This document shows positions 4,862-59,200 of a stretch of 64,000 bases of DNA, one piece after another. This DNA comes from a bacterium. Its GTDB lineage: Bacteria > Patescibacteriota > JABMPQ01 > JBDRIV01. The position numbers and the translations under genes are program-made. The stretch lies in NCBI GenBank assembly GCA_043815505.1, contig JBDRIV010000004.1:186051-250050 (forward strand). The letters run 5' to 3'. Position 1 is the first letter of the stretch, and every line of letters begins with the position of its first letter. The notes beneath the pieces are model-generated. The model was not told the DNA's origin. It was given only the letters and a program-made list of their open reading frames with translations, and ran no database searches.

Positions 4862-5305
4862 TTATTTATTTTGTTTCGTAGTCTTACGTTTTGCAGTTTT
4901 TCGAGCTGTTTTTTTCTTAGCTGGTTTTCGTTTTTTTACAGCCCTGCGCTTTGCGGGCTTCTTTTTCTTATTTCTTTGTTTGGCTTTAAATGCCTTATAT
5001 TGCTTTTCTATATCTTTGCCAACTTTTTTGCCAACAGTTTCCATTTGACGCCCGAATTTTTTACCTTCTTCTGCAACCTTGCGACCAACTTTTTTGGCAC
5101 TTTTACCGGCTTTATTAAATTTATTTTGTACGTCTTCATCTTGAAAACGTTTGGCAAAAGCTTTGGCGGAAGCTTCGGTAGCCTTTCCTAAAGCTTTGGC
5201 TTTTTCTTTCAATTTTGGGTCATCGAAAATTTCTGCAATGGCTGAACCAAATTCAGCAAACATCGCCTTGAAATCATTACCCGTTGTTTTTTTCTTTTTG
5301 GGCAT
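4862..5305 (-). CDS. lysine/alanine-rich basic protein, histone H1/AlgP-like (possible nucleoid-associated protein)
   Basis: 147 aa. The C-terminal tail 'KAKQRNKKKKPAKRRAVKKRKPAKKKTARKTAKRK' is extremely K/R/A-rich. The plus-strand ORFs over it are antisense shadows. Confidence 0.65.
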   Translation of the reverse strand: MPKKKKTTGNDFKAMFAEFGSAIAEIFDDPKLKEKAKALGKATEASAKAFAKRFQDEDVQNKFNKAGKSAKKVGRKVAEEGKKFGRQMETVGKKVGKDIEKQYKAFKAKQRNKKKKPAKRRAVKKRKPAKKKTARKTAKRKTTKQNK

Positions 5306-46609: not shown

Positions 46610-46639
46610 ATGATTATGCTAAGGATTGATTTTATTATA

Positions 46640-46747
46640 ACAAAAAACCGCCCTTCTGTATATTGCTTGCTCTGCTTGTCCCGAATTATTTTGAGGGGAG
46701 CTTATCGAAGAAGTTTACTCTGAGTTTATCGAAGAGGCGATTCTTTG
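46640..46747. repeat. cassette-array repeat, copy R0 (terminator module with an internal direct repeat)
   Basis: 'caaaaaaccgccc...gagtttatcgaagaggcgattc' is shared with copies R2 and R4. Confidence 0.6.
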
Positions 46748-46765
46748 TTTATTATAGACGATTTG

Positions 46766-47074
46766 CTAGAGATTTAATTCTTTTTCAGTAACAATACCCT
46801 TTGCAATTAAAACTTGCTTGATCTTTTCAACACGAGCTGCAATGATTTTAGAATCTTCATACCACCTTTCGACAGTTTTAATTAGATTGTCTATTGAGTT
46901 AGTAAGATTATCTATCTTCTTGCTTAAAGGTTTAACCTCTGTTTCAAAGCGCCTATTTACCTCTTCTGTTAAACTGTCAATTTTATTATCAACGCTGTCA
47001 AACTCTTTTTTAAATATCCTTGCTAGTCCTTCAAGGCCTTTGTCCAGTTCTTTTTTAGTTAGTGGTTCTGCCAT
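46766..47074 (-). CDS. small coiled-coil protein (cassette gene, paralog 1)
   Basis: The N-terminus 'MAEPLTKKELDKGLE' and ~150 bp of upstream DNA are identical to those of 47884..48225. Confidence 0.6.
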   Translation of the reverse strand: MAEPLTKKELDKGLEGLARIFKKEFDSVDNKIDSLTEEVNRRFETEVKPLSKKIDNLTNSIDNLIKTVERWYEDSKIIAARVEKIKQVLIAKGIVTEKELNL

Positions 47075-47096
47075 TTTGATTGATTAAAGTAGTAAT

Positions 47097-47124
47097 AGTA
47101 TATCAAATCGGTTTTCAGTGTCAA
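47097..47124 (-). promoter_or_regulatory. sigma70-like promoter TTGACA-16-TATACT for 46766..47074
   Basis: Minus-strand 'TTGACActgaaaaccgatttgaTATACT', ~22 nt upstream of the ATG. Duplicated exactly at 48248..48275. Confidence 0.5.
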
Positions 47125-47140
47125 ACACTTTGGAAGTGAA

Positions 47141-47286
47141 TCACTTGGCAACTTTGCTTATTGGCTTAAGTGTCGCTTGCCCGCGGATGCGGGACGCAGC
47201 CAGTTTACTCGCCGATTGCAAAGCAATCAAGGGGTGAACGTTGCCTGCCCGCTCCAAAACTTTAGTGAAAAAGGGTTAGAACAAGG
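47141..47286. repeat. cassette-array repeat, copy R1 (B-core tail + diverged C module)
   Basis: 'tcacttggcaactttgcttattggc' ... 'gggttagaacaagg'. Confidence 0.6.
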
Positions 47287-47421
47287 TTAATAGATATACC
47301 AAGCTCTAGTCTTTGACAATTCTCACACTATATACTACATTATATAGTCAATGAGTGACAAAACCTGTTTTTTAATTATATCACTTAGGACAAAATGTTC
47401 TCTTTATTGGAGGAAAAGACT

Positions 47422-47691
47422 ATGAACGCATTAATTCCTGGCTTCTTTGTTATTGTTGCTTTTATTGTAGCTGCTTACATTCATAAGAATAGTGAATGGC
47501 TCATCATTTCCTATTTCGTTACAGGAGCTGTTGGCTATGTTTTGGACTACCTACTACAATCTTTTCTCGAAAATCAACTCAGTAACTATACACTTTTCAG
47601 TCCGAATAGTGTGGATTTTACCGTTATGTATGCTGTATTGTTCGTTATTCCACTCGTTGTTATTTTCAGAAACAAATTGATGCGCTCCTGA
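47422..47691 (+). CDS. small 3-TM membrane protein (start revised to the Met preceded by GGAGG)
   Basis: 'ttggaggaaaagactATGAACGCA'. Putative -35 TTGACA at 47313-47318 with TACATT 16 nt downstream. Confidence 0.55.
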   Translation: MNALIPGFFVIVAFIVAAYIHKNSEWLIISYFVTGAVGYVLDYLLQSFLENQLSNYTLFSPNSVDFTVMYAVLFVIPLVVIFRNKLMRS

Positions 47692-47883
47692 ACTATCTCA
47701 AATACTGCTAGTGGTTCTTCTAAATGAGACCCTTGTATTTATTTCAACTTCAATTGTGAAGATGGAATGATGCATGGGTTTTTTTGTCAAAAAACCGCCC
47801 TTCTGGCTATCAAGCTTGCTCTGAGCTTGCCGAAGAGGCGATCTTCTTTCAGGTGAACAGTTTTTTGTTTATTAACTCTTTTA

Positions 47884-48225
47884 TTATGTGAGGTTTAATT
47901 CTTTTTCCGTGGCAATTCCTTTTTTTATTAGAACCTTCTTCATCCTTTCAATTCTTGCGGCAAGAATTTTAGACTCTTCTTGCCACTCTTCAACTTTCTT
48001 AACGTATTTATCTAGCATATTTATAAATCTGTCAAATTTATCATCAATTGCTTTAAACTTTTTGTTCATTTCTAATTTTAGAGAATCTATTTGCATATCT
48101 ACACCATCAAGTCGCTTATCAATACCGTCAAAACGCTTATCAATTCTATTAAATTCTCCTTTAAAAGTTTGTGCTAACTTTTCAAGGCCTTTGTCCAGTT
48201 CTTTTTTAGTTAGTGGTTCTGCCAT
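47884..48225 (-). CDS. small coiled-coil protein (cassette gene, paralog 2)
   Basis: Same N-terminus and promoter (48248..48275) as 46766..47074. Confidence 0.6.
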   Translation of the reverse strand: MAEPLTKKELDKGLEKLAQTFKGEFNRIDKRFDGIDKRLDGVDMQIDSLKLEMNKKFKAIDDKFDRFINMLDKYVKKVEEWQEESKILAARIERMKKVLIKKGIATEKELNLT

Positions 48226-48291
48226 TTTGATTGATTAAAGTAGTAATAGTATATCAAATCGGTTTTCAGTGTCAAACACTTTGGAAGTGAA

Positions 48292-48373
48292 TCACTTGGC
48301 AACTTTGCTTATTGGCTCAGTGTCGCGTGTCCAGCTGAACTGTGTGCAGCTGGGTGGACGTTGTTAGAACCAA
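48292..48373. repeat. cassette-array repeat, copy R3 (B-core tail + long C module with a palindromic insert)
   Basis: 'tcacttggcaactttgcttattggctcagtgtcgcgtgtccagctgaactgtgtgcagctgggtggacgttgttagaacc'. Confidence 0.7.
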
Positions 48374-48491
48374 GTTAGTCTCAAATGCTTGACATTTTCG
48401 TTATTATGTGTTAACATGTAATGTTCCTATTCTAGGGACAAAAGTGCCTATCCTTTGATGGGCTAGCCATTTCACCGAGGAGGATGAGAAA

Positions 48492-48827
48492 ATGGCTAAG
48501 AAGAAATCGAAGACGTTCTTTGGGTCAATTTGGGATGAGGATCAGCGAGTTGAGTCTATGAATTTTCAACTCCATGACGCGACTGGGGAACTCGATCAAC
48601 GTTGCGTCCAGAAATGTCATGCTCGCACAACACCCGAGGTTGATTTCTTTATCAGATTGGCTTCTCAAGCTGAGTCTGGCACCATCTACGAAAGAGCGCT
48701 TCATCTCTCGAAAGCCGAAGATGGACGCTTCATTCTAAGAGAAGGTGTCCGAACCCTGTATCTGAATCACCTAGAGTTCACCACCCATGATTTACCGAGA
48801 TTCCTCGGCTACAAAATGGGTTTCTAA
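48492..48827 (+). CDS. hypothetical protein (GC-richer cassette gene)
   Basis: RBS 'gaggagg' 8 nt before the ATG. TTGACA-17-TAACAT at 48389-48417. Followed by an 'acgacc...ggtcgttttt' terminator. Confidence 0.6.
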   Translation: MAKKKSKTFFGSIWDEDQRVESMNFQLHDATGELDQRCVQKCHARTTPEVDFFIRLASQAESGTIYERALHLSKAEDGRFILREGVRTLYLNHLEFTTHDLPRFLGYKMGF

Positions 48828-48891
48828 AACAACAAATCAGGCTGCTTCTTTTGAAGCTACAACGACCCGCCATATAAGAGGTCGTTTTTAC

Positions 48892-49018
48892 TTACCAAAA
48901 AACCGCCCTCCTGTATATTGCTTGCTCTGAGTTTATCGAAGAGGCGATTCTTTGGGTGCCGAACGACCAAACCTATCTTGGATAGGAACGGGTCACTTGG
49001 CAACTTTGCTTATTGGCT
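48892..49018. repeat. cassette-array repeat, copy R4 (terminator module + full B core)
   Basis: 'ccaaaaaaccgccctcctg...ggcgattctttgggtgccgaacgaccaaacctatcttggataggaacgggtcacttggcaactttgcttattggct'. Confidence 0.7.
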
Positions 49019-49093
49019 CCCCAGTCCAAAGCTTATTATAATCCTTAAAGATGCCCGCTATCTAGCGGAACTGAAGGAGCAATTATTAGCAAT

Positions 49094-49324
49094 TCAGGCG
49101 TTGTTGTGATGACTGTTCCTACTCCCGTGTTCAATTCCACGGTTTTCATTAATCCCTTTACTTCCTAACGTTTTGTTCTTTTTCGCTTTGTTGTTCTTAT
49201 TGTTTCTCTTTTTGTTGTTATAAAGACACTGGTCCCATAAGATGTCTGCTAGTTGCTCGGTTCCCATGTCTAATATCTCTTTCTTTGTAAATTTGTCATA
49301 GCTATTATTGCTGTTCTTTGACAT
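49094..49324 (-). CDS. low-complexity K/N-rich small protein (uncertain)
   Basis: ORF downstream of the oxidoreductase gene. Its C-terminal part overlaps a degenerate repeat. Start placed at an internal Met. Confidence 0.25.
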   Translation of the reverse strand: MSKNSNNSYDKFTKKEILDMGTEQLADILWDQCLYNNKKRNNKNNKAKKNKTLGSKGINENRGIEHGSRNSHHNNA

Positions 49325-49437
49325 AAAATCATCTTTTAATAGCAGGTTATTAGTCCAATTACATGGCAAGGATATTATGATAGCACACCATATCATCCTC
49401 TATTATATTTAAACTGCTAGAACTAATTATATGTTTT

Positions 49438-50553
49438 CTAAAGCTTTCTAGGATCTCTTAAATGTTTTGAGTATATCAATCTGGCAAGTGGGTAAATTGC
49501 TTTTTTCAACAAAGATGGTCTATAAAAATCACCAAGGAATCTAATGGGATCCGCATTGTCGTGGAGCATTCCTACAAACAATCTATATGATCTACGTCCT
49601 AACATATGATACAGTAATCTGTTAGAAATAGATGTTTTTAGTCTAGGTAAAACCACTTTCTTAAATAGAGAATAATAATCTTTATTATCTATGATACTTT
49701 TAGCAGCTATATAACCTGTTGTCATTGCATGTCTAATCCCAAACCCCCATAAGTAATCTTGAGTTCCATTGGCTTCACCCACATATATTTTTCCGTCACT
49801 GGGTTCCTTAGGCAAGAAGAAATTTCCTGTCCCTCCGAATTGTTTTACATTAGTCATTGTAAAATTGATAGATTCTTTGCAAAGCTTGAGTGTTTTGTCA
49901 CGATATTCATTTAGATTCTTGAAGTCATTGAAAATACAAGTAGCAATGACACCATGCCCATTATGGACGAGAAAATAGGAATATCCATCTTTGGCATATT
50001 TGTCATCTGCAATCATTACAATTCGATCTTCGGAATCTGTTTTAAATGTATAACCGCTAGCGAAACCATCTTTAACAGGATCGTTTACTGCTGGCCCAGT
50101 AGCTACAACATCTACTTCTTCAGGTTTTACCAAAGTATTATAAGCGACCTTGATATTGTCATATCTCATAATTTGTTGATTGAGACCATGGTCTAGTGAT
50201 CTTTTTTCAACACCTCGCTTGACCATATAAAAAGCGGGGCGCTCTACATCAAATTCTCTTCTAAATCCATCAGGACCCCAGAAAGATATCTCTTTAAATC
50301 CGGGATGATCAAAATTTGTTTCTATATTAGCTCTCTCTAAAAAATCAAGAGCGTCTTCTTCAAAGCTCCAGTTTTCAATTCCTTGGAAATCCCCTTCAAA
50401 TCTTTTTCCTGAAGTTTCATTTTTCTCATAGATTTCGACCTCATACCCTTCTTTGGCTAAACATAAGGCTGTAGTTATTCCGGATACACCTGCACCTGCA
50501 ATTTTTATCTTTTTACCTTTCATAGTCTTTATTATTTTTTTTAATCCTATCAA
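49438..50553 (-). CDS. FAD/NAD(P)-binding oxidoreductase (geranylgeranyl-reductase-like family)
   Basis: N-terminal Rossmann motif 'KIKIAGAGVSGITTALCLAKEGYEVEIYEK' (GxGxxG + acidic residue). Confidence 0.7.
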   Translation of the reverse strand: MIGLKKIIKTMKGKKIKIAGAGVSGITTALCLAKEGYEVEIYEKNETSGKRFEGDFQGIENWSFEEDALDFLERANIETNFDHPGFKEISFWGPDGFRREFDVERPAFYMVKRGVEKRSLDHGLNQQIMRYDNIKVAYNTLVKPEEVDVVATGPAVNDPVKDGFASGYTFKTDSEDRIVMIADDKYAKDGYSYFLVHNGHGVIATCIFNDFKNLNEYRDKTLKLCKESINFTMTNVKQFGGTGNFFLPKEPSDGKIYVGEANGTQDYLWGFGIRHAMTTGYIAAKSIIDNKDYYSLFKKVVLPRLKTSISNRLLYHMLGRRSYRLFVGMLHDNADPIRFLGDFYRPSLLKKAIYPLARLIYSKHLRDPRKL

Positions 50554-50710
50554 AAAACCGCACTTTTGTACATCAGAGCAAGCGTGTTTGGCGATTTTTT
50601 GATATCTGGATTATCTATCTAGCCATCTTTAGTGGTGAGATTAGACAGGATATGTGTTATCCACAGTTTAGGGGGGTTAATTTGCTTTAAAAGTTATATT
50701 TTCATAGCTA

Positions 50711-50743
50711 AAACTCAGTGTCGTGGACATTGTTAGAACCAGG
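50711..50743. repeat. cassette-array repeat, copy R5 (short C module)
   Basis: 'aaaactcagtgtcgtggacattgttagaaccagg'. A degenerate terminator module lies at 50549-50610. Confidence 0.6.
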
Positions 50744-50811
50744 ATAACAAAAAAGGCGTACGTAGATACTACTTAGTTCTACGACGCCCATTTGATTCTC
50801 CCCTTTGTTGT

Positions 50812-51408
50812 TTACTCCTTGAATCTCTTGATTTCGACGTGATCTTCTCTTATCTTTATCAATTTGTTGACCACAGCTGTCGTTTTATTAGTTGAGATAA
50901 ACTCTATAAATTGGATTTCTGAATTCTGAAAAACGGTTTTGGTTAACGTTTCTCCAGGGTTGAGTTCCTGCAGAACACTGTCCTGCTTGGGGTCATGTAG
51001 GATAAGAATAACTTCTTCATCATCTGTTACAACTCGTTGCAAAATTAGAAGATAAAGAGTCAGGATCTCATCACCAACATTGGTGAAATTCGCGAGGTAT
51101 TGATTATCTTCTGATTCCTCAACACATAATTCGACTCTGTGAAGAAGTTTGGTTTCACCAAAATCGATTAACTCTTCTACTTCCAATGGTTCATTTCCAC
51201 CATTGGAATTAATATCACCAATCGACCTCGGCTCAAAAACGACCTCCTTTTCATTAACTACATCCGTAAACGCTGGTAGAAAGAAAACCCTCTTTCCTTT
51301 CACGGTACCTTCAGTAACGTTGATAGCAACGTAAATGAGTGCAACGATTGCTGCTCCCGCCAACAAACAGGCAATAAACCTTATAACATTTGCTGTTTCG
51401 ACTTTCAT
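50812..51408 (-). CDS. hypothetical signal-anchored protein
   Basis: N-terminal TM 'FIACLLAGAAIVALIYVAI'. Followed by an own terminator, 'gggcgtcgtag...ctacgtacgcc' + T-run. Confidence 0.5.
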   Translation of the reverse strand: MKVETANVIRFIACLLAGAAIVALIYVAINVTEGTVKGKRVFFLPAFTDVVNEKEVVFEPRSIGDINSNGGNEPLEVEELIDFGETKLLHRVELCVEESEDNQYLANFTNVGDEILTLYLLILQRVVTDDEEVILILHDPKQDSVLQELNPGETLTKTVFQNSEIQFIEFISTNKTTAVVNKLIKIREDHVEIKRFKE

Positions 51409-51473
51409 TTTTTTCTTCCTCCCAATGAATTTGTTTTTGAAACTATTTCGAGATGTAAGAGTGCTATATTTAT

Positions 51474-51678
51474 CCTACTAAAAACCGCCCTCCTGCGCAA
51501 TGCTCCTGAGCGGGCAGGCCTGTTTTTTACCAGCCTGGGGCGGGGGCGATTTTTTGGATGCCATACGACCAAACCTATCTTGGATAGGAACGGGTCACTT
51601 GGCAACTTTGCTTATTGGTTTGAGTGTCGCGTGTCCAGCTGAACTGCGTGCAGCTTGAGTGGATGTTGTTAGAACCAG
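51474..51678. repeat. cassette-array repeat, copy R6 (terminator + B + long C; full-length form)
   Basis: Contains all three modules, with a few substitutions relative to R4 and R10. Confidence 0.7.
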
Positions 51679-51805
51679 ATTGATGGTTAGTACTTGACAA
51701 TTGTATAATAAAGTGTTATTCTTCTATGATTCAATGAGTACAAGTTTCTGCTTTATAAACAGCTACTTCCTTGTTGAAGTATGCACATTTCTGGAGGTAC
51801 AGAAA

Positions 51806-51928
51806 ATGTTTTGGTGGCAAAGGACAAACATTGTTCACGGTGGATATCGAGTCGAATACGAAGTGATGAATAACATCGTGGCTGGTACACAAACATACAC
51901 AGGCAGGCATCGTTATGTTCCTGCCTAA
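51806..51928 (+). CDS. small protein (40 aa; start revised to the Met with a GGAGG RBS)
   Basis: 'ggaggtacagaaaATG'. A terminator hairpin 'ggggcgttagtgaaactaacgtcc' follows the stop. Confidence 0.45.
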   Translation: MFWWQRTNIVHGGYRVEYEVMNNIVAGTQTYTGRHRYVPA

Positions 51929-51976
51929 ACAGTATCTTTGCCTTCGGGGCGTTAGTGAAACTAACGTCCTTTTCTT

Positions 51977-52077
51977 CTACCAAAAAACCGCCTGTTTGGC
52001 GATTTTTTGTTTACAACTGAAGTGTCGCGTGTCCAGCTGAACTGTGTGCAGCTGGGTGGACGTTGTTAGAACCAGGA
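51977..52077. repeat. cassette-array repeat, copy R7 (terminator + long C)
   Basis: It ends exactly at the stop codon of 52078..52482. Confidence 0.7.
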
Positions 52078-52482
52078 TTACTCAAAGAAATTATCCATTA
52101 TCTGCTTAGCGTCTTCTAAATCACCATATTTCTTGCAATCAACACCTGACCCTAGAATCATACCTGATACTCTTTTCCCATCTTGTAGTTTGTATAAACA
52201 TAGTATTTTTTTATCGTTCTCCAATGCTCTACCAATTTCGTATCCAACCCCCAATGATGGAATTGTAATTTCTGCAACAACCACATCTGAACTTAAAAGC
52301 CATTTCATATCACGATTATGTATAATTTCATCTTTCTCATTCTCTCCTAGACTGTTTAGATTACTATCACCAATATGCTCTGTAAGCACTTCTCCATATT
52401 TTTTTAGATGTTCAATGATTTGTAAATACAAATCTGTATCATCTCTGCCACCTCTTATGGCTCCAGCAAAATATATTTTCAT
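52078..52482 (-). CDS. 2'-deoxynucleoside 5'-phosphate N-hydrolase (DNPH1/Rcl; nucleoside 2-deoxyribosyltransferase-like fold)
   Basis: 'KIYFAGAIRGGRDDTDLY...VLTEH...DVVVAEITIPSLGVGYEIGRA...KKILCLY...GKRVSGMI' parallels DNPH1 'SVYFCGSIRGGREDRALY...VLTEH...DVVVAEVTQPSLGVGYELGRA...KRILCLF...SGRVLSAMI'. Confidence 0.8.
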   Translation of the reverse strand: MKIYFAGAIRGGRDDTDLYLQIIEHLKKYGEVLTEHIGDSNLNSLGENEKDEIIHNRDMKWLLSSDVVVAEITIPSLGVGYEIGRALENDKKILCLYKLQDGKRVSGMILGSGVDCKKYGDLEDAKQIMDNFFE

Positions 52483-52507
52483 TTTTGAAATTTAATTACT
52501 TCTACAT

Positions 52508-52576
52508 CCTACCAAAAAACCGCCACTTTGGCGATTTTTTGTTTACAACTCCGCATTGTAGACAACATTAGAACCA
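52508..52576. repeat. cassette-array repeat, copy R8 (terminator + variant C)
   Basis: 'cctaccaaaaaaccgccactttggcgattttttgtttacaactccgcattgtagacaacattagaacc'. Confidence 0.6.
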
Positions 52577-52997
52577 TATTAATGAAGCAGAAAGGGTGTG
52601 TTTATATACCAGACTTAAGGCCAGAAGCCTTAAAGAAGTAATTACCCCACACCTGTTTACACTATATATCAAATAAAAAAAGACCTTTTAACAATGTAGA
52701 GGTCTAACTGCGGTTGTGGTTTATGGATCAACATTGGGGAGAAATTCGACTTTTAGAATGGCAGAGAATTCTACTTCAATTCTTGTGCCGAAGTTTTCGA
52801 TAATCCTGTCGCAAACTCGTTCGATCTCCGTTATAACTGATGCCACCTGCGATTCCATCAGGGGAGAATACATTCCGATGTTCCCATCAAGGGTGTAACT
52901 ACCCCTCTTAATTATCACGTTGCAGGTCCCGACTGTGAGCTTGTTTTAACTGGGTTTCTTAGAATTGTTGGGGATTTTAGCAATACATAATAGAAAA

Positions 52998-53828
52998 TCA
53001 CGACTTTTTTAATGCAGCACTTAGTTGTTTCACAAATCTTTCATTACTCTTAGATGCCTCATCTTGCTCCTTTGAAATGTTTGTTACAGAGTTAATTGTC
53101 TTTATTAGTTCAAATAGTAGACTTCCCGTATTCATAAATAGAGTCGTATGGTTCTTTTCCATATGCATTTCCAGGCTTTCCATTTCGGGAGTCTCACCAG
53201 GTGTAAATACCCCAGTATGAAACAAGAACCCATATAATGACCCGTGCAGTGATTCAGAAGCATCTGTATAATACAGGGTCTGATAAATTAGAAAATGACC
53301 TATATTTGATTCTGAATTCTCCCCAATGATTTTTATTCTCTCCGGTATAGATGTATTGGTCCACCTTCTGATTTCTTTACCTTTTTTTGTAGTAAACTTT
53401 TTTAGAGCAATATCTAATTCTGACCCCTTCTTTGGTTCTTTCTTACCAGAATATTCTAATTTTATTTTTTGATCTCCAGCTTTAAATTCCTGATCAAGCC
53501 TTCGATAGGCTTTTTGTATTGTATATAAATAGTAATTATTGAACTCATCATCGGAACAAGTCAGTAAGTAGCAAATATTTACTACTCCCTCAAAATATCC
53601 TCTCGCAATCATTACAGATGCATTATAAAATCTATCATCTTCACTGAGCCTTTCCAATGCTCCTACGGTAGATAGTAAACTTCCAATAGCTACCAATATT
53701 TTTTTAACCCTTTCATGCTTGGGCGATTTCTTGAAAATTCCGTATACAATACTTGCTTGCTCTGATAAGAATATTCTTGATTTAGCTGTAAGGATTTTTG
53801 AACCAAAAAAGAGAGCACTCTGATTCAT
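52998..53828 (-). CDS. hypothetical protein (cassette gene)
   Basis: ORF of 276 aa with no recognisable motif. Confidence 0.5.
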   Translation of the reverse strand: MNQSALFFGSKILTAKSRIFLSEQASIVYGIFKKSPKHERVKKILVAIGSLLSTVGALERLSEDDRFYNASVMIARGYFEGVVNICYLLTCSDDEFNNYYLYTIQKAYRRLDQEFKAGDQKIKLEYSGKKEPKKGSELDIALKKFTTKKGKEIRRWTNTSIPERIKIIGENSESNIGHFLIYQTLYYTDASESLHGSLYGFLFHTGVFTPGETPEMESLEMHMEKNHTTLFMNTGSLLFELIKTINSVTNISKEQDEASKSNERFVKQLSAALKKS

Positions 53829-53855
53829 ATAAATTCTTTAATAATTTTGTTCCAT

Positions 53856-53927
53856 CCTACCAAAAAACCGCCTGTTTGGCGATTCTTTGTTTACAACTCA
53901 GTGTCGTGGACGTTGTTAGAACTAGAA
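53856..53927. repeat. cassette-array repeat, copy R9 (terminator + short C)
   Basis: It ends exactly at the stop codon of 53928..54968 and lies ~28 nt upstream of the 52998..53828 start codon (53828). Confidence 0.7.
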
Positions 53928-54968
53928 TCACTTCTCTACAATCGTAATTATTCCTTTCTCGGCGTCAACTTCTACTTTATCGCCATCTTTAAGCACTTGT
54001 GTTGCATTCTTTGTGCCAACTATACATGGGACACCTAGTTCTCTGGCGATAATAGCTGCGTGACATAAAAGCCCTCCTTCATTTGTTACTATGGCAGAAG
54101 CTTTTTTCACTGCATGCAATAGTCTGGGAGTTGTCATTATAGAAACCAAAACATCTCCTTGCTTAATTTTTTTGATATCAGCTTTGGTATTCACAATACG
54201 AACAATACCCACCACCTTACCAGAATAAGCTTTAATGCCGGCTATTTCACTAGTTTTAGCTATCTTTTCCGGTAACAATTGACTCTTTTCAATTTCTTTT
54301 GCTTTATTCTTTGTAAATATTTGTATTTTATTATTTTGTAACCAAAGAACATAGTATTTTTCTCTTTCACTCAATTTTTTACTATCAATCAATTTATCGT
54401 TTTGAATAAGACCAAGGAATTCACTGGGTAAGTAGAACATCAGATTCTTCTGAGAGATTCCATACTTTTCTGAGAGACTGATAAAAAATGGTGATGTCTT
54501 ATCCCAAGCAGCACAACTTTCAACTTCGGCTTGTTCGTGCCATTTCCCAACTATATTTAGATCTTTTAGTTTGTTATTTTTTGATTCTAAGTACTTAATC
54601 ACATATTCTGTATAATACACAATACCTCTTGCTAATTTATATTGACTTATAAAGCGTTTAAGTTCTTTATAGTTTTTTTTAGTTATTAGGGAATTAGTAG
54701 AATTTTTGAGCTCACTCAATATATGTTCCCAGGAAGGAATTAGTCTTTCCAAATAGCCATTTTTGTATTCCCTTCTAATGATTTCCTGTTGACCTTCAAT
54801 ATCGGAAGCAAGTTCATATACTGCTGTTAAGCTGTCATTGTTAACAACAAATAAATTTCTAACCTTAAACTCTGATTTATTACCAAACATTTCTCTGTAA
54901 CCATCAATACGAATGAATCTCTCTAATAGAACGGTTTCTCTTGTAACAAGAAGTTTCCAATCGTTCAT
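53928..54968 (-). CDS. protein with a C-terminal PEP-utilising-enzyme mobile (phosphohistidine swivel) domain and an unknown N-terminal domain
   Basis: 'GDVLVSIMTTPRLLHAVKKASAIVTNEGGLLCHAAIIARELGVPCIVG' matches the swivel domain of PEP synthase / PPDK / rifampin phosphotransferase. Confidence 0.7.
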   Translation of the reverse strand: MNDWKLLVTRETVLLERFIRIDGYREMFGNKSEFKVRNLFVVNNDSLTAVYELASDIEGQQEIIRREYKNGYLERLIPSWEHILSELKNSTNSLITKKNYKELKRFISQYKLARGIVYYTEYVIKYLESKNNKLKDLNIVGKWHEQAEVESCAAWDKTSPFFISLSEKYGISQKNLMFYLPSEFLGLIQNDKLIDSKKLSEREKYYVLWLQNNKIQIFTKNKAKEIEKSQLLPEKIAKTSEIAGIKAYSGKVVGIVRIVNTKADIKKIKQGDVLVSIMTTPRLLHAVKKASAIVTNEGGLLCHAAIIARELGVPCIVGTKNATQVLKDGDKVEVDAEKGIITIVEK

Positions 54969-55008
54969 AATAAACTATCAATTAAAAATATTTCTTTCAT
55001 AACTCAAT

Positions 55009-55159
55009 CCTACCAAAAAACCGCCCTTCGGTAAACTCAGGATATATACCTGTTTGGCGATTCTTTGGGTGCCGAACGACCTTTGCAGTTCCGGATAGGA
55101 ACGGGTCACTTGGCAACTTTGCTTATTGGCTCAGTGTCGTGGACGTTGTTAGAACCAGG
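55009..55159. repeat. cassette-array repeat, copy R10 (terminator + B + short C; full-length form)
   Basis: 'cctaccaaaaaaccgcccttcgg...ggcgattctttgggtgccgaacgacc...gggtcacttggcaactttgcttattggctcagtgtcgtggacgttgttagaaccagg'. Confidence 0.7.
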
Positions 55160-55225
55160 ATAATAAAAACTCAGAATCATTTTTATATCATTGATTAGAA
55201 TATGGTATAATACTATGTAGAAAAT

Positions 55226-56041
55226 ATGTCTTTGTGTTTATGTGCAAAGATTCGTAAACTTCGTATCCTTATTCATCGCTGTATGAAAAGAGTAACAAAA
55301 ACTACCTTGATAGCTGTTGGTTCTATAATAGGACTGATAATTCTTGTGTATCTTTATTTCTTTTTTGGGGAAATCAGAAGAATGCATTTTTCAAGTTGTG
55401 ATACTGCTGTAACTGAAACATCATCCTTAGAAAAAATTGAACAAGTTTCAATGGCTTATTATAAATCTCCAAACCCCGATATTGTTGTTCCAATGATTAA
55501 TACTCTTACAGAACAAGACACATTTCAAACAAATTCCTTTGGTCCAATGGCTGCATTTTTTAGTAGAATCTTTGCAGATAACCCAGACAAATTAGAAAGA
55601 TGGGTTATGCAAGACCTTTGTGGTTTAAATAATCAACCTCTTTCAACTTTTGATGTGGTTGTAAATGCTTTATGGATGGCCGATACCCCTGAAGCAAGAG
55701 ACATTCTTAATAAAATTGAAGATACAACAAAAGTCCCTGATGGAAAAAATTATATTGAAAGTCAAATAACTAGAGAGGTATTGGATTTAAAAACTATGAG
55801 TGTTACAACCTCTTTGGATTTAGATATTATTTGGTCCGCATTTTTTGCAACTGGAGATAAAGAATATATTGAACAAATTGTCTCTGTTCTCTATTCAGAT
55901 GATGAAAATTCGTCTAATGATGTCTTATTAGAATCTACTGCTAAGTGGTCCCTTAAATCAAATTACGCGGACAATCCAAAAATAAAGGAAGTATGTGACT
56001 TGAATTCTGAATGCAAGAATCAACTTTTTTCTGAAGAATAA
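55226..56041 (+). CDS. hypothetical signal-anchored protein
   Basis: TM 'TTLIAVGSIIGLIILVYLYFFF'. TATAAT at 55203-55208. The true start may be the internal Met at 55283. Confidence 0.5.
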   Translation: MSLCLCAKIRKLRILIHRCMKRVTKTTLIAVGSIIGLIILVYLYFFFGEIRRMHFSSCDTAVTETSSLEKIEQVSMAYYKSPNPDIVVPMINTLTEQDTFQTNSFGPMAAFFSRIFADNPDKLERWVMQDLCGLNNQPLSTFDVVVNALWMADTPEARDILNKIEDTTKVPDGKNYIESQITREVLDLKTMSVTTSLDLDIIWSAFFATGDKEYIEQIVSVLYSDDENSSNDVLLESTAKWSLKSNYADNPKIKEVCDLNSECKNQLFSEE

Positions 56042-56058
56042 TAAATAAAAAGATTTTC

Positions 56059-56204
56059 TTTACCAAAAAACAGGGTTATTCCCTGTTTTTATTTTCAACT
56101 CACTCACTGGGACGATTTTCGAACTTTCAAATGGATTGATGGGAACATCGAAGAGCTACTTAGTGAAATTAAAACTCAGTGTCGTGGACGTTGCTAGAGC
56201 TGAT
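56059..56204. repeat. cassette-array repeat, copy R11 (terminator-like hairpin + unique spacer + variant C)
   Basis: 'taccaaaaaacagggttattccctgttttt' ... 'aaaactcagtgtcgtggacgttgctagagctg'. It lies between convergent genes. Confidence 0.55.
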
Positions 56205-56238
56205 GCAGCGTTTAATTATTCTATACTTGATATGATTA

Positions 56239-59200
56239 TTATGTGTTCAGTAGCGATACAATGTCTTTGATTATTATTCCCTTGTCATTCCTCTGATTCG
56301 TCCAATCTGAATATTTTATTCTATAAAAGTCCCACCCAGCAACCTCTAATCTTTCCTGTCTATCAAGGTCATTCTGTACATATATTGATAATTCATCGTC
56401 AAGTTCATCTTTGAAATGAGTTGGGCCATCACATTCAAAAGCGATTTTTTGACCATTGCTCTTATTATGTATCACGAAGTCAATTATATAACCACAACTG
56501 TTAACCTGGCTACGAATAGAGTAATCTTTGCCAAGCTCACTTCTCAAATAATCGTATACATTCTCTTCGAATTTATTTGTACATTTTATTTTCTCGTTAG
56601 TGAGATCGCCAATCTCTCCATTTTTATTAACATATTCTAAATATCTTTTTATCCAAATACCGCCAGGAATCTCAGAAATCGGCATACTTATAAAGCAATG
56701 AACCTGCTTTTTAGCTCTAGAGAAAGCAACATTTACTCGTCCCGTATTTATTGCTCCTTGAATATCTCCGCCCTCTCCAGTTAATGGTACGTATTTTCGT
56801 TTATCTTCTTTATTTTTTATTACAAATGAATAAAGAACTATGTCCTTCTCATCACCTTGAATTCCCTCAATTATACTTATTTTATAATTATCCTCTTCTT
56901 CTTTGTATCCTGCTTCTTCAAATACTTCTCTAATGTAAGATGCCTGTGCGTTAAAGAATGTTAAAATCCCAACAGACATCTCTGAGCACCGTTTTTCTTT
57001 TCTAATTTCTCCAAAATATTTAAGTATTGCTTTTGCTTCACTAACATTTATCTTGTCTGAAATCTCCTCACTTAAATCTACCTCTACTTGATTAATGGTC
57101 ATTATTCTGTTTGTATTCTTGTATGTTATATAGTTATCGTTTACAACTACCAGACCTTTGTTTTTTGGTTTATAGAAATACTTATTACTAAAACCTATTA
57201 ATTCTCTAGGTGACCTATAATGATATCTGAGAGATATCATTTGAGTTCCCCTTAATTCCGAAATATCAAGCACAGATTGCACCGCATCACCAGTTGCTTT
57301 AATTTTTAGTTCGTCAGGAATATTATATTTTTTAGCCAACTCATCAAAAAACTTATTTGATTTAAACCGTGTAGTACCATCTTTCATTTGCTCACTATCA
57401 CCAACGAATATAACCTTTTTCCCCCTAAACATTGAGGGTAATGTGTATGCTATATTGCATTCGGAAGCTTCGTCAAGTATTACAATATCAAAAATATTGG
57501 GGTCCAGTGGAATAAGACGACTCGCATCATCTAGTTCCATAACCCAAGTAGGTATAAGATCAACTATTGTTCTAAAATTTTCTGGGTTCTTCCTGAGGTC
57601 ATCAAAGGTTTTAAAGGCTCTTTTTGATTTTCTGAATGCTTTTGCTAATTTACTTATAATTGCTCTATTTTTTTGAATTTTCCACTTTTCAAACAATTTA
57701 TTATTAATAATATTTTGCAAATAGTTTGCAATATGATCATTCTTTCCCTTTCTTGCATTCTTAATCTTTTTGGAAATATCATTTATATTGAATCTTGTCG
57801 ATTTCTCCAATTCTCTTCTTTGCTTTTCTAATTTGTATACTTTAATAACATTATCTTTTGCGCTATCAAAATTCCTTTTTGACTTTTCAATAACTAGACT
57901 ATTAAACAGCTTGAAGCTATTTTCAGATAAGCCACAAGTCTCTAGACTCTTCTTTACTACTGTTTTTAATTCCTTAATTTTGTTTTTATTCTCGCAAAAT
58001 ACTAGATAGTTTTCTAACTCCATTAACTCAATTTCTTGTGATTTTCTTGAAGACTCTTTATTTAGTGCTTCATCAATATAGTCAATAATTTCCTTAGGTA
58101 GTTTTTCTCGTGTTCGTTTCAACCTTACTTTACGCTTAAGATTATTAAATGCTCTTATTATATTTGAATTTCTGTCGTAGCCAGTTTTATGTACATCACT
58201 TAAAATACTCTTAATGGCGACAGAGAAACCTTTTACTGTTAAATCATAGTTGTGAAATAATTCATCAAATTTATTCTTATGGCTAGAAGTATGATATTCT
58301 TCTCTCTCTTCTTGGATTCTATTGACTAATGTCCTATTATTGTTTATTTCTTTCCACATCTTCTCATCGAAAGTATCTGTGAGCTTAGATACATTTCTAA
58401 TTGGAACAATAAAACTCTCTAGATCACTAATTTTCTGAGATTTTGAGAAAATTTCTCTTTGGACCTCTACTACGCTATTAAACAGTTTTTTTAATTTATT
58501 TAGTTCTGTAGATTCTTTGTTAATTAGTTTTTTAGAATCATCGTGTAAATCATTCTTATTATACTCGATAAGTTTTTTTCTAATATCAGTATTAATTCCG
58601 ATGTTTTCCATATGTGCAGCTAAACTAGTTAGCATATTTGCCACACCATCTTTTTCATCAATTTCGTTAACCTGTGCTGAAGACAAATTTGGAATATAAC
58701 CAAAAAGGTATGCAACATTAAGTTCCTTTAGCTTGTCCTTCACTACTTTTACTGCTTGTGATTTTTGGCTCACAAATAACACTCTCTTTCCAGTAGCTGA
58801 ATAATGACATATGAGATTTGCTATTGTTTGAGATTTTCCAGTCCCAGGAGGACCCTGAATAATAGAAGCTTTGTTTTTTGATAAACCAAGAGATCTATAT
58901 TGTGACTCATCATAAGGAAATGGGAAATATACTTCCTTGTCGGTGACACTGTCACCAAAGCCATCGAATTCATCATCCCAATCCTCCGTCCAGCTGGATA
59001 AAGAGGTTTCATTAAGATCCTTTTCATCAACATTTATCATATTCTGGAGATCTTCAGCCAGGAAATAATTTGACTTTGAACTCAGTGCTATTTGCATTTC
59101 TTCTAATGAAAAGGATTTCTCATCATATATTGCTTCAGTTGTTTTTAGAAGTGCTTTTGTTTTATGCCATATATCAATAAATACTTTGTCATCTGTTATA

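What the first reader, a model, noticed from the sequence alone, without database searches (positions are those of the whole stretch)
46640..56204. Cassette array: ~13 heterogeneous small genes, each bounded by copies of a modular structured repeat
At least 11 copies of a repeat family sit between consecutive genes across ~9.6 kb; module coordinates are in the repeat features above.

Composition:
- module A: a terminator hairpin 'CCTACCAAAAAACCGCC-loop-GGCGAT(T/C)TTTTG'
- module B: an optional ~65-nt core 'GGGTGCCGAACGACCAAACCTATCTTGGATAGGAACGGGTCACTTGGCAACTTTGCTTATTGGCT', containing the palindrome cctatcTTGgatagg
- module C: 'CAGTGTCG-[optional inserted palindrome GTCCAGCTGaactgtgtgCAGCTGGgtGGAC]-GACGTTGTTAGAACCAGG'
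- short (~70 nt) and long (~150-200 nt) forms coexist
- the two ends are only weakly inverted (CCTACCAAAAAACCGCC against CCTGGTTCTAACAACGTCC)

Placement:
- several copies abut a stop codon to the base (52077/52078 and 53927/53930)
- copies R1, R3 and R6 (coordinates in the features list) are each followed within ~30 nt by a TTGACA promoter for a plus-strand gene

Cargo:
- the genes between them are unrelated, mostly short, often orphan or GC-deviant
- they include the helicase-nuclease, the PEP-swivel protein and the DNPH1-like gene

Conserved boundaries, a variable middle and promiscuous cargo are the hallmark of an integron-type cassette array. The alternative is proliferated Correia-like MITEs that donate promoters and terminators. 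This would be uncommon for a reduced genome and may represent an undescribed cassette-capture or defence-island architecture.
Basis: seen in the sequence. Interest (0 to 1): 0.85.

Follow-up and report, generated by a model that had tools for sequence, protein, structure and literature searches.

The report
Gene-cassette array with tRNA-like junction sites
A 9.6-kb stretch of a small candidate-phyla (Patescibacteria-like) genome holds about a dozen unrelated small genes, each separated by the same ~27-base junction sequence. The same junction separates different accessory genes in other such genomes, so this looks like a gene-cassette system that is not an integron.

Summary
Twelve intergenic modules lie between 46.6 and 56.2 kb. 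They are built from a hairpin (A), an optional 65-nt block (B) and a core (C).

A sequence model of the C core finds 9 copies. All are on one strand, all within 48.3-56.2 kb, and none elsewhere in the 64-kb window.

The core reads GTTCTAAC-nnn-GTCC-n6-8-GAGC in gene sense. It recurs in at least six other Patescibacteria contigs, always in same-orientation arrays between unrelated small accessory genes.

Comparative evidence for cassette behaviour:
- One gene (a glycogen-debranching-like enzyme) sits between cores in three genomes with unrelated neighbours.
- Homology breakpoints fall between GTCC and GAGC.
- One array starts exactly at the 3' end of a tRNA-Asn gene.
- Another array is contiguous with bona fide partial-tRNA repeats.

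It is not an integron:
- there are no complementary R''/R' pairs;
- the core has no consensus structure;
- no recombinase was found in 64 kb.

It is also not a dispersed REP or MITE.

Best reading, at confidence 0.5: single-gene cassettes have accreted at a degenerate tRNA-3'-end-like attachment site, through a recombinase encoded elsewhere. Each cassette carries its own terminator/promoter module. The tRNA likeness of the window's own cores is weak, and mobility is inferred, not shown.

The parts
46641..46748 (-). R0: long form of hairpin A, directly upstream of the BNR-repeat gene start. On the minus strand it reads GGCGGTTTTTTGTTATAAT, that is, hairpin plus extended -10.
46766..47074 (-). 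Cargo 1: 102-aa coiled-coil protein, paralogue of cargo 3, with its own TTGACA-16-TATACT promoter at 47124-47097.
47141..47286 (-). R1 junction: the last 26 nt of B, then a core split by a ~95-nt insert (AGTGTCGC ... GGTTAGAAC).
47395..47691 (+). Cargo 2: 98-aa membrane-like ORF, no family hit, promoter at 47313.
47788..47849 (-). R2: hairpin A (long loop).
47884..48225 (-). Cargo 3: 113-aa coiled-coil protein, 53% identical to cargo 1. The gene and its upstream region are duplicated (repeat families D7 and D17).
48292..48374 (-). R3 junction: partial B plus a core carrying the 29-nt CAGCTG palindrome insert (48329-48351).
48492..48827 (+). Cargo 4: 111-aa ORF, no family hit, promoter at 48389.
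48896..49022 (-). R4 junction: hairpin A plus full B ending in GAGCC. The GTTC..GTCC half of the core is missing, and the break lies exactly 5' of GAGC in gene sense.
49094..50553 (-). Cargo 5 and 6: a 100-aa ORF and a 371-aa FAD-dependent oxidoreductase (a two-gene unit).
50551..50745 (-). R5 junction: hairpin A, ~110 nt of unique sequence, then the core (50713-50739).
50812..51408 (-). Cargo 7: 198-aa ORF, no family hit.
51478..51682 (-). R6 junction: hairpin A, B, and a core with the palindrome insert.
51807..51928 (+). Cargo 8: small + strand ORF (40 aa from the ATG; listed by the ORF tool as 75 aa from a TTG at 51701). Promoter at 51694. Its terminator at 51946-51970 is a palindromised copy of the core sequence.
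51981..52077 (-). R7 junction: hairpin A, GTTTACAAC, then a core with the palindrome insert. It ends one base before the stop codon of cargo 9.
52078..52482 (-). Cargo 9: nucleoside 2-deoxyribosyltransferase-like protein (134 aa).
52513..52580 (-). R8 junction: hairpin A plus a degenerate core (AGACAACATTAGAAC).
52998..53828 (-). Cargo 11: DUF5677 protein (276 aa). A doubtful 65-aa ORF lies at 52721-52918.
53861..53927 (-). R9 junction, shortest complete form: hairpin A, GTTTACAAC, then the core. It abuts the stop codon of cargo 12. This is the best-scoring core (38.9 bits).
53928..54968 (-). Cargo 12: 346-aa protein with a C-terminal PEP-utilising mobile domain.
55014..55160 (-). R10 junction: hairpin A (long loop), B, and the core (55129-55155).
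55226..56041 (+). Cargo 13: 271-aa ORF, no family hit.
56064..56205 (-). R11 junction: an A-like hairpin and two cores. One is subtype II (GTTCGAAAATCGTCC, 56098-56124). The other is a degenerate subtype I (56174-56200), 38 nt downstream of the helicase-nuclease stop codon.
56239..59805 (-). Bordering gene: SF1 helicase fused to an MTES_1575/DUF559 nuclease. It is conserved at ~50% identity across candidate-phyla genomes and is not cassette-like elsewhere.

Best explanation
The region is an array of small, self-contained expression cassettes of one or two genes.

Anatomy of a unit, read in the sense of most cargo (the window's minus strand):
1. The 3' part of a junction site (GAGC, often GAGCCA).
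2. A portable regulatory module. In this genome it is hairpin A, AAAAATCGCC-loop-GGCGGTTTTTT, followed at once by an extended -10 (TGGTAGGAT). Some copies have block B in front of it, and some cassettes have a TTGACA-type promoter instead.
3. The ORF.
4. The 5' part of the next junction site (GGTTCTAAC-nnn-GTCC plus about 6-8 variable bases), within 0-25 nt of the stop codon.

I propose that the ~27-nt junction is a DNA recombination site, with exchange in the variable stretch between GTCC and GAGC. I further propose that it descends from the T-loop-to-3'-end segment of a tRNA gene, which is the classic attachment site of integrases. Cassettes would be added, lost and shuffled at these sites by a recombinase encoded elsewhere in the genome or on a visiting element. 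Short-homology recombination between the conserved modules may add to this. The hairpin insulates each cassette from read-through, and the promoter makes it independent of position.

Shown:
- the anatomy, clustering and single orientation of the sites;
- conservation of the core across genomes;
- unrelated cargo;
- shared cassettes in different contexts;
- the positions of the breakpoints;
- one array anchored at a tRNA gene.

Inferred:
- that exchange is site-specific;
- the tRNA origin of the window's own cores;
- the identity and location of the recombinase;
- present-day activity.
For: 1. Clustering. There are 9 model hits on one strand within 7.9 kb and none in the other 56 kb of the window. 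There are none in 63 kb of core-genome loci L043-L045, nor in L048/L049.

2. Conservation.
- The same core occurs in Candidatus Falkowbacteria LCGL01000001 (L032; 4 model hits at E<=2.5e-5, a weak fifth at E 0.44, and one more remnant seen by eye).
- It also occurs in L033, L034/L022, L016, L011 and L006/L040 (7 hits in 4.5 kb plus 2 weaker).
- It occurs in L042 and L046 as well.
- All copies are antisense to the motif strand used here, that is, just downstream of cargo ORFs.

3. Cargo. It differs in every array and is typical accessory material: GNAT, NUDIX, Fic, HAD, glyoxalase, KilA-N, RhuM, aminoglycoside/choline-kinase-like, CDPS.

4. A shared cassette.
- The GDE gene is the only sequence shared by L040 and L042 (85% nt identity over 1266 nt).
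- The left edge of homology is at ...GGGG|AGCAAAATAAAAATCGCC against ...ATGA|AGCATAAAAAAATCGCC, right at the end of the upstream core.
- Both copies carry the window's hairpin A.
- Both are followed by GGTTCTAAC-AGC-GTCC with the same variable triplet, after which the sequences diverge.
- L046 shows the same gene between core-like sites with yet other neighbours.

5. Mosaics.
- L032_7445 and L034_6715 share CTGCGGAG, the terminator and the promoter, but differ in the hexamer plus GGAC... part.
- L032_4164 and L032_7445 show the reverse pattern.
- R4 of the window breaks exactly 5' of GAGC.
- Inserts of 29, 36 and 95 nt sit inside the core.

6. The tRNA link.
- The L042 array starts at the 3' end of tRNA-Asn. 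A TTGACA promoter follows 4 nt after the CCA, the same spacing as after cores.
- In L040 three partial-tRNA 3' ends (z = 7.5-8.3 against tRNA 3' ends for the two that were scored) continue directly into the core array.
- L040 and L042 cores score z = 3-5.4 against tRNA 3' ends.

7. Position. The core lies before the terminator in the window and L032, but after it in L040 and L042. The only constant is 'between the ORF end and the next promoter'. This favours a DNA-level role over an RNA-level role.

8. Precedent. Tandem islands separated by partial tRNA or tmRNA repeats are known, including integrase-less cis-mobilisable remnants (10.1101/2020.12.28.424599; PMC3146451).
Against: - No recombinase gene was found in the 64-kb window, nor in about 90 kb of related array-bearing loci.
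- The window's own cores resemble tRNA 3' ends only weakly (z = 0.7-3.4).
- The core model does not score the L042 tRNA-Asn 3' end. The tRNA origin therefore rests on a chain of intermediates.
- No two strains were found that differ by presence or absence of one cassette at an otherwise identical locus.
- Regulatory modules also reassort relative to the cargo on their other side. The promoter module of L032_7445 and L034_6715 drives different genes. A single crossover point does not explain this, and it suggests that general or illegitimate recombination contributes.
- GDE changes neighbourhood in every genome examined, including three that have no cores (L043, L048, L049). Its different neighbours therefore carry less weight as evidence of core-mediated mobility.
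- A relic 3' end of another gene inside one L034 cassette points the same way.
- The whole source genome could not be examined, so other clusters or dispersed copies cannot be excluded.
Confidence: 0.5

Rival explanations
1. A regulatory module without any dedicated recombinase. The core would be a protein-binding site, for example for a regulator or silencer of accessory genes. It would travel with a terminator/promoter unit. Copies would spread by promoter propagation and ordinary or short-homology recombination after DNA uptake. The repeats would then passively favour gene shuffling, as proposed for promoter-stem-loop repeats of T4-type phages (from my own knowledge).
For: - The core almost always lies just upstream of a promoter: 3-6 nt before TTGACA in L040/L042, and before the hairpin plus extended -10 in the window.
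- Whole terminator+promoter modules are shared between different genes and genomes.
- No recombinase is seen near any array.
- Relic gene ends inside cassettes suggest non-site-specific replacement.
Against: - The distance from the core to the -35/-10 is not fixed. It is 3-6 nt, 29 nt, or about 45 nt with a hairpin in between, which argues against a factor working through promoter geometry.
- Breakpoints cluster within about 8 nt inside the core, rather than anywhere in the 150-nt modules.
- One array begins at a tRNA 3' end, and another is contiguous with partial tRNAs.
Confidence: 0.2
2. A modular miniature transposable or REP/BOX/BIME-like intergenic repeat (A-B-C). It would have proliferated locally and would donate terminators and promoters to neighbouring genes. 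The genes themselves would not be mobile.
For: - The element is modular, with short and long forms, hairpins and palindromic inserts.
- Copies R4, R6 and R10 are 88-95% identical over 74 nt.
- There are weak terminal inverted bases, ATCCT...AGGAT, in R5 and R10.
- Copies lie at gene ends, as REP/BIME and BOX elements do (from my own knowledge).
Against: - All copies lie in one 9.6-kb cluster and in one orientation.
- There are no target-site duplications and no consistent terminal inverted repeats.
- ATCCTA is better explained as the -10 box TAGGAT of the next gene. It is present only where a minus-strand gene follows.
- Between genomes only the 27-nt core is conserved, not the element as a whole.
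- Several genes lie inside 'elements': between A and B/C in R0-R1, R2-R3 and R4-R5.
- B has no match in 596 Gb of genomes.
Confidence: 0.2
3. A canonical integron cassette array lacking its integrase (a CALIN). The repeats would be attC sites recombined by an IntI-type integrase through folded single strands.
For: - The array has one orientation, with sites abutting stop codons and heterogeneous small cargo typical of chromosomal integrons.
- The gene-sense start of the core, TTCTAACAA, resembles the inverse core site of the aadA1 attC (from memory).
- In 4 of 4 folded Falkowbacteria modules an outer stem (for example CGTTCCAA/TTGGAACG) encloses the hairpin.
Against: - There are zero RYYYAAC/GTTRRRY complementary pairs 50-145 nt apart on either strand of the array.
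- The best inverted partner of the core is not better than shuffles for most copies, and for all window copies.
- The AAC/GTT triplets are not conserved in several core variants (GTTCGAAA, GTTCTAAA).
- The core has no consensus structure.
- Both strands fold equally well.
- No IntI or any tyrosine recombinase was found in the window.
- Most cassettes have their own promoters.
Confidence: 0.05
4. Local tandem duplication of one ancestral gene-plus-spacer unit, followed by divergence and gene replacement, with no mobility function for the repeats.
For: R0-cargo1-R1 and R2-cargo3-R3 are an obvious duplication: 89% identity over 194 nt, and the proteins are 53% identical.
Against: - The other cargo genes share no similarity with one another.
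- The core is conserved in unrelated genomes with other cargo.
Confidence: 0.05

Closest known systems
Tandem accretion of integrative elements at tRNA/tmRNA genes. Examples are Prochlorococcus islands built by tycheposons (Hackl et al., bioRxiv 10.1101/2020.12.28.424599) and Dehalococcoides ssrA-specific genomic islands (McMurdie et al. 2011, PMC3146451).
   Same: - Direct repeats derived from the 3' part of a tRNA or tmRNA gene separate successive blocks of accessory genes, all in the orientation of the RNA gene.
- New arrivals push older ones inward.
- Integrase-less remnants ('cis-mobilisable elements') persist between repeats.
- Insertion is in the T-loop region.
- The islands hold most of the strain-specific genes of a streamlined genome.
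- Here, L042 starts at tRNA-Asn and L040 has true partial tRNAs in series with cores.
   Different: - Units here are 0.4-2.4 kb with one or two genes, against 5-20+ kb.
- None of about 40 units seen carries an integrase or a replication module.
- The repeat is a diverged 27-nt consensus with an apparent 5-nt insertion relative to a tRNA, not an exact copy of the resident tRNA end.
- The window array has no tRNA gene within 64 kb.
- Each unit has a stereotyped terminator/promoter module.
Integron cassette arrays, including integrase-less CALINs (Cury et al. 2016; from my own knowledge)
   Same: - Arrays in one orientation of single, unrelated, mostly small accessory genes.
- Each gene is followed closely by a recombination-site-like repeat.
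- Repeats within one genome are alike.
- There is a variable-length middle.
   Different: - The site is a sequence motif, not a folded attC.
- There is no R''/R' pairing.
- No IntI is present.
- Cassettes carry promoters and terminators.
- The likely ancestry is from a tRNA attachment site.
Modular intergenic repeats: pneumococcal BOX, enterobacterial BIME/REP, neisserial Correia elements (from my own knowledge)
   Same: - Mosaic A/B/C build with optional modules.
- Hairpins.
- Location at gene ends.
- Ability to supply terminators or promoters.
   Different: Those elements are dispersed genome-wide in both orientations and do not delimit variable genes. Here the copies are clustered, lie on one strand, and share only a 27-nt core across genomes.
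Promoter-early stem-loop (PeSL) repeats of T4-type phages, proposed to mediate modular shuffling of small ORFs (Arbiol et al. 2010; from my own knowledge)
   Same: Repeated stem-loop-plus-promoter units flank small, variable ORFs in hyperplastic regions. Shuffling is thought to occur by recombination between the repeats.
   Different: Those are in phage genomes and lack a conserved non-regulatory core or any tRNA link. Here the conserved part is the core, not the promoter or hairpin, and breakpoints fall inside it.

Membership tests
Integron / CALIN | attC sites: RYYYAAC (R'') and GTTRRRY (R') 7-mers that are mutually complementary and lie 50-145 nt apart | tested here: not met
   A regex-plus-complementarity scan found 0 pairs on either strand of 46600-56300.
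Integron / CALIN | A conserved folded structure (R and L boxes, extrahelical bases) rather than a conserved sequence, with strand-specific folding | tested here: not met
   - RNAalifold on 28 cores predicted no pairs.
- The best inverted partner of the core is not significant for most copies.
- The two strands fold with similar energy.
- An outer stem appears only in the four folded L032 modules, in L033_4923 and in R7.
- IntegronFinder's own attC model could not be run.
Integron / CALIN | An IntI tyrosine recombinase with attI and a Pc promoter at one end of the array (not required for a CALIN) | tested here: not met
   No recombinase domain was found in the 55 window ORFs scanned, which covers nearly all ORFs >=110 aa. 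Precomputed Pfam hits for L040 and L042 also show none.
Integron / CALIN | A one-orientation array of sites <4 kb apart separating unrelated ORFs | tested here: met
   Nine cores lie on one strand at spacings of 76-2369 nt. Cargo genes are unrelated.
MITE / REP-BIME / BOX-type dispersed repeat | Copies dispersed around the genome in both orientations | tested here: not met
   Within the 64-kb window all core and B copies lie in 47.1-56.2 kb on one strand. The whole genome was not available.
MITE / REP-BIME / BOX-type dispersed repeat | Terminal inverted repeats and target-site duplications (MITE), or REP palindromes with a cognate RAYT transposase | tested here: not met
   - The only terminal inverted bases are 5 nt, ATCCT/AGGAT, in 2 copies.
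- No duplications flank the copies.
- No transposase is present in the window.
Tandem integrative elements at a tRNA/tmRNA gene | Direct repeats that copy the 3' part (from the T-loop onward) of the target RNA gene | tested here: inconclusive
   - L040 fragments: clear (z = 7.5-8.3; one ends in CCA).
- L040/L042 cores: z = 3-5.4.
- Window cores: z = 0.7-3.4, though several end in GAGCCA.
- The tRNA genes of the source genome were not available.
Tandem integrative elements at a tRNA/tmRNA gene | The array adjoins the intact target RNA gene and shares its orientation | tested here: inconclusive
   This is met in L042, where tRNA-Asn (5202-5276) is followed at once by the first cassette promoter. 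It is not met in the window, L040, L032, L033 or L022, where no tRNA gene was found.
Tandem integrative elements at a tRNA/tmRNA gene | At least some units carry an integrase | tested here: not met
   None was found in any array-bearing locus examined.
PeSL-like mobile regulatory cassettes | Repeated stem-loop-plus-promoter units flanking variable small ORFs | tested here: met
   Hairpin A plus an extended -10 lies upstream of cargo in the window, and upstream of two L040 genes and of GDE in L042. A shared TTGATT-16-TATAAT module is seen in L032 and L022.
PeSL-like mobile regulatory cassettes | Exchange by homologous recombination between the regulatory repeats themselves | not testable with these tools
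   The breakpoints seen lie in the core rather than in the hairpin or promoter. The mechanism cannot be told from sequence alone.

The most novel reading that the evidence does not exclude
Patescibacteria may possess an integron-analogous gene-capture system that evolved independently of integrons. In it, single-gene cassettes each carry their own terminator and promoter. They would be inserted, excised and reshuffled at a dedicated ~27-nt site descended from a tRNA attachment site. The recombinase would act in trans and be encoded elsewhere, in the genome or on a phage or episome. Such a system would give these tiny, host-dependent genomes a compact 'plug-in' accessory gene store.
Probability: 0.3. 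Interest if true: 0.85.

Novelty: new variant of a known kind. Interest (0 to 1): 0.65.

Why it matters
Candidate-phyla (Patescibacteria) bacteria have very small genomes, and how they acquire and turn over accessory genes is poorly understood. I found no paper describing integrons or cassette arrays in this group.

A conserved junction site that delimits single-gene units would be useful in four ways:
1. It is a searchable marker for the flexible gene pool of these organisms.
2. It offers a concrete substrate, GTCC-n6-8-GAGC, for finding the responsible recombinase.
3. It may be an evolutionary intermediate between classical tRNA-targeted islands and integron-like single-gene capture.
4. It makes the question testable with existing long-read metagenomes, by looking for cassette gain or loss and for circular junctions.

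If instead the core proves to be a regulatory site, it would define a lineage-wide regulon of horizontally acquired genes.

Tried and rejected
1. Structured RNA. Rfam gave 0 hits at gathering thresholds and only two chance-level hits at E<=5. RNAalifold on 28 cores predicted no structure.

2. Coding remnant.
- On the + strand the cores read ..VVD-x-(V/F)-RT.. with synonymous-looking changes and shared tails such as YIPDLR and DDFRTLDWIEE.
- I pursued a parent gene with Pfam and NCBIfam, with a word-indexed search of 5.8 billion proteins, and with a full phmmer search of 1.84 billion representatives.
- Only spurious repeat proteins came back.
- No copy has a long upstream ORF or a consistent start codon.
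- The 'stop codon' is the complement of the neighbouring terminator's T-run.
- I rejected this as an explanation, but the periodicity in the L006 pairs remains unexplained.

3. The helicase-nuclease as a conserved anchor for the array. Homologue loci L035-L039 have no cores.

4. Source contig retrieval. Exact-protein look-ups failed, although a 100%-identical protein is on record from a 255-kb NCBI MAG contig. A genome-wide census was therefore impossible.

5. The B 24-mer in 596 Gb of genomes: no hit. B is specific to this genome.

6. Defence island. PADLOC hits only the bordering helicase.

7. Phage or plasmid origin. There is no blastn match in either collection. The one core-pattern scan of viral contigs gave two single matches that lack the core's flanking context.

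8. Other readings of the core. I considered dif/Xer-like, sigma-54, ECF-promoter and DNA-uptake-sequence readings from the sequence and dropped them. The core has no dyad symmetry, the spacing is wrong, or the copies are clustered rather than genome-wide.

Full report
WHAT IS THERE

The window is low-GC (about 0.35). Most genes lie on the minus strand, and there is no tRNA gene and no Rfam family hit. Its gene content includes heliorhodopsin, BipA, type IV pilin-like relatives in related loci, and giant surface proteins. The best homologues come from Buchananbacteria, Magasanikbacteria and Falkowbacteria. Together these place it in the candidate phyla radiation / Patescibacteria.

Between 46.6 and 56.2 kb, twelve intergenic modules (R0-R11) separate about 14 ORFs.
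- Hairpin A occurs nine times, plus one A-like copy.
- Block B occurs three times in full and twice as its last 26 nt.
- Core C occurs about ten times, three of them with an identical 29-nt palindrome insert.
- Two junctions abut stop codons to the base.
- TTGACA promoters follow R1, R3 and R6.

A sequence-only covariance model built from 28 cores finds nine window hits. All are on the + strand and within 48,343-56,205, with none elsewhere in the window.

READING DIRECTION AND MODULE A

CAAAAAACCGCC also marks terminators of minus-strand genes across the whole window, so that motif is not array-specific.

The array copies pair ACCGCC with GGCGAT. On the minus strand this gives ATCGCC/GGCGGT with a U.G wobble, and on the plus strand a C.A mismatch. 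The hairpin is therefore built for the minus strand.

On that strand the hairpin is followed at once by TTTTTTGGTAGGAT, an extended -10 (TGnTAnnAT). A start codon follows 20-40 nt later. The TAGGAT box is present only where a minus-strand gene follows.

The same hairpin plus -10 (AAAAATCGCC-loop-GGCGGTTTTTTGATAAAG) precedes two genes in locus L040 and the GDE gene in L042. These come from other genomes. Module A is thus a portable terminator-plus-promoter unit that belongs to the 5' end of the downstream cassette.

THE CONSERVED CORE

Scans of public collections with the core found relatives only in Patescibacteria-type contigs:
- L006/L040 (seven model hits within 4.5 kb, plus two weaker hits at 17.9 and 19.7 kb);
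- Candidatus Falkowbacteria L032 (four clear model hits, one weak hit, and one more remnant seen by eye);
- L033, L034=L015=L022, L016, L011, L005 and L025;
- later L042 and L046.

The shared block is 27 nt. In gene sense it reads GTTC[T/C/G]AA[C/A]-nnn-GTCC-n6-8-G[A/C][G/A]C. GGAC, TT and GAAC are nearly invariant on the opposite strand.

The block has no predicted consensus structure. Everything around it differs between genomes.

In every locus the cores share one orientation. They sit within 0-60 nt downstream of small ORFs that are unrelated from array to array. Examples are GNAT, NUDIX, Fic, HAD, glyoxalase, KilA-N, RhuM, a kinase-like protein, a cyclodipeptide synthase and many orphans.

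In the window and L032 the order is ORF, core, hairpin, next ORF. In L040 and L042 it is ORF, terminator, TTTTTTTACCCAAA..CAG, core, then TTGACA promoter 3-6 nt later, then the next ORF. The one constant is that the core lies between an ORF end and the next promoter. This argues for a role at the DNA level.

EVIDENCE FOR CASSETTE BEHAVIOUR

1. The GDE cassette.
- The 395-aa glycogen-debranching-like gene is the only sequence shared by L040 and its 81%-identical relative L042 (1266 nt at 85%).
- Homology begins at the last bases of the upstream core (..GGGG|AGCAAAATAAAAATCGCC against ..ATGA|AGCATAAAAAAATCGCC).
- It runs through hairpin A and the ORF.
- Downstream, both copies have GGTTCTAAC-AGC-GTCC with the same variable triplet, after which they diverge. 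The L042 copy is split by a 36-nt hairpin insert.
- In L046 the gene again lies between core-like sites, with other neighbours.
- In L043, L048 and L049 it lies in other contexts without cores.

2. Mosaics in L032 and L034. These two loci show a two-by-two reassortment of 'left parts' (CTGCGGAG, terminator, promoter) and 'right parts' (hexamer plus GGAC..GAAC plus tail). The junction lies between the hexamer and CTCCGCAG.

3. Window R4 keeps GAGCC, B and A but lacks GTTC..GTCC. It breaks exactly 5' of GAGC.

4. Inserts of 29, 36 and ~95 nt sit inside the core.

These four lines place breakage and joining in or next to the variable stretch between GTCC and GAGC.

THE tRNA LINK
- In L042 the array starts at the 3' end of tRNA-Asn. 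The sequence ..GGTTCGAATCCTACCGCCGGAGCCA is followed 4 nt later by a TTGACA promoter, just as after a core.
- Some L042 cores (GGTTCTAATCC..AGCCGGCGGAGC) resemble that tRNA end (z = 4.4).
- In L040 three partial tRNA 3' ends (GTTCGAGTCCTAGCCCGnnAGC; the two that were scored give z = 7.5-8.3, and one ends in CCA) separate the genes just upstream. They run directly into the core array.
- L040 cores look like such an end with five extra bases (GTTCGA-acact-GTCC-..-GGGGAGC; z up to 5.4).
- The window's own cores are only weakly tRNA-like (z = 0.7-3.4), although several end in GAGCCA.

I therefore treat tRNA ancestry as a reasonable inference, not a finding.

WHAT IT IS NOT

Integron:
- No complementary RYYYAAC/GTTRRRY pairs on either strand.
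- No significant inverted partner for most cores.
- No strand asymmetry in folding.
- No recombinase domain in the 55 window ORFs scanned, nor in the related loci.
- Promoters are present in most cassettes.
- An outer stem around the hairpin appears in the four folded Falkowbacteria modules, one L033 module and R7. I record this as a lead.

Dispersed REP or MITE:
- The copies are clustered on one strand.
- There are no inverted termini or target duplications.
- Only the core is conserved between genomes.

Defence island: only the bordering helicase-nuclease hits PADLOC.

Phage or plasmid borne: no matches in either collection.

MOST LIKELY MECHANISM (confidence 0.5)

Cassettes of one or two genes, each insulated by a hairpin and driven by its own promoter, have accreted and been reshuffled at a dedicated junction site derived from an integrase attachment site. 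Exchange occurs between GTCC and GAGC. The recombinase acts in trans.

This is the logic of tandem islands at tRNA or tmRNA genes and their integrase-less remnants, as in Prochlorococcus tycheposon islands (10.1101/2020.12.28.424599) and Dehalococcoides ssrA islands (PMC3146451). Here it is miniaturised to single genes, which makes it function like an integron.

Weak points:
- No recombinase has been found.
- No strict presence/absence polymorphism between strains has been seen.
- Regulatory modules also reassort at their other end.
- GDE also changes neighbourhood in genomes that lack cores.
- The source genome could not be scanned.

The main rivals are a purely regulatory module spread by ordinary recombination (0.2) and a local MITE-like repeat (0.2).

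UNEXPLAINED

The strand opposite the cores has a codon-like pattern (..VVD-x-V/F-RT..). Close pairs in L006 show an excess of third-position differences there. No parent protein exists in the databases searched. The ORF ends are simply the complements of terminator T-runs.

CAGCTG-centred palindromes are inserted into cores in two unrelated genomes.

VERDICT

This is a real, non-random and comparatively supported cassette array. It is not an integron. It is best filed as a new, miniaturised variant of attachment-site accretion in Patescibacteria. Interest is 0.65.

Noticed in passing
window 22697-23494 (-): A heliorhodopsin gene (Pfam PF18761, E = 2e-101) in a Patescibacteria-like genome.
   Followed up: no
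window 10093-11751, 32028-33773, 44567-46609 and 34467-43508 (all -): A family of secreted proteins shares an acidic, Cys-rich segment (..CTDNLDNDCDSFVDEEDFDCEE..) and similar N-termini. A 3013-aa surface protein carries an internal ~2.9-kb duplication (repeat families D1-D5).
   Followed up: no
window 18233, 26527, 31962 (and generally): Outside the array, terminator hairpins of the form AAAAAACCGCC-loop-GGCGGTTT are followed at once by an extended -10 (TGnTAnnAT) and the next start codon. Terminator and promoter overlap, which seems to be the house style of this genome.
   Followed up: partly
window 48329-48351, 51633-51655, 52031-52053; L042 ~7300 and ~7960: Palindromes centred on CAGCTG are inserted into the junction core in two unrelated genomes. 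In the window the insert is GTCCAGCTG..CAGCTGG, and in L042 it is GTCAGCTGAC. This may mark a cleavage or repair hotspot or a protein-binding site.
   Followed up: partly
window cores on the + strand; L006 189, 2363, 2802, 3695, 4206, 4656: The strand opposite the cores reads like the C-terminus of a protein (..VVD-x-V/F-RT.., with tails DDFRTLDWIEEFGDLE and GNIYIPDLR). Differences between close pairs are mostly at third positions. No parent protein was found in 1.84 billion representatives.
   Followed up: yes
L042 11816-12292, and inserts at ~5700, ~9800 and ~16300: There are four tandem copies of cacttcgactttgctcagtgtaaa. Related 'cttcgactacgctcagcacgag' blocks are inserted into several junction cores of that genome. 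This looks like a separate small repeat family.
   Followed up: no
window 56239-59805 (-): The SF1 helicase fused to an MTES_1575/DUF559 nuclease matches the PADLOC candidate defence models PDC-S37, Hhe and MkoA/MkoC. It is conserved at about 50% identity in very many candidate-phyla genomes, which is unusual for a defence gene.
   Followed up: partly
window 51946-51970 (+): The terminator of the small + strand gene is a palindromised copy of the core sequence (GGGGCGTTAG-tgaaa-CTAACGTCC). Its 3' arm can also pair with the R7 core about 90 nt away.
   Followed up: partly
L038/L039 5401-7023: A large serine recombinase lies about 3 kb upstream of a helicase-nuclease homologue in a Buchananbacteria contig. 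No junction cores are nearby.
   Followed up: no
L035 1314-1401: ARAGORN reports a tRNA-Ile with an AAT anticodon and an unusually long (88-nt) gene, next to a normal tRNA-Ile(GAT) and a tRNA-Ala.
   Followed up: no
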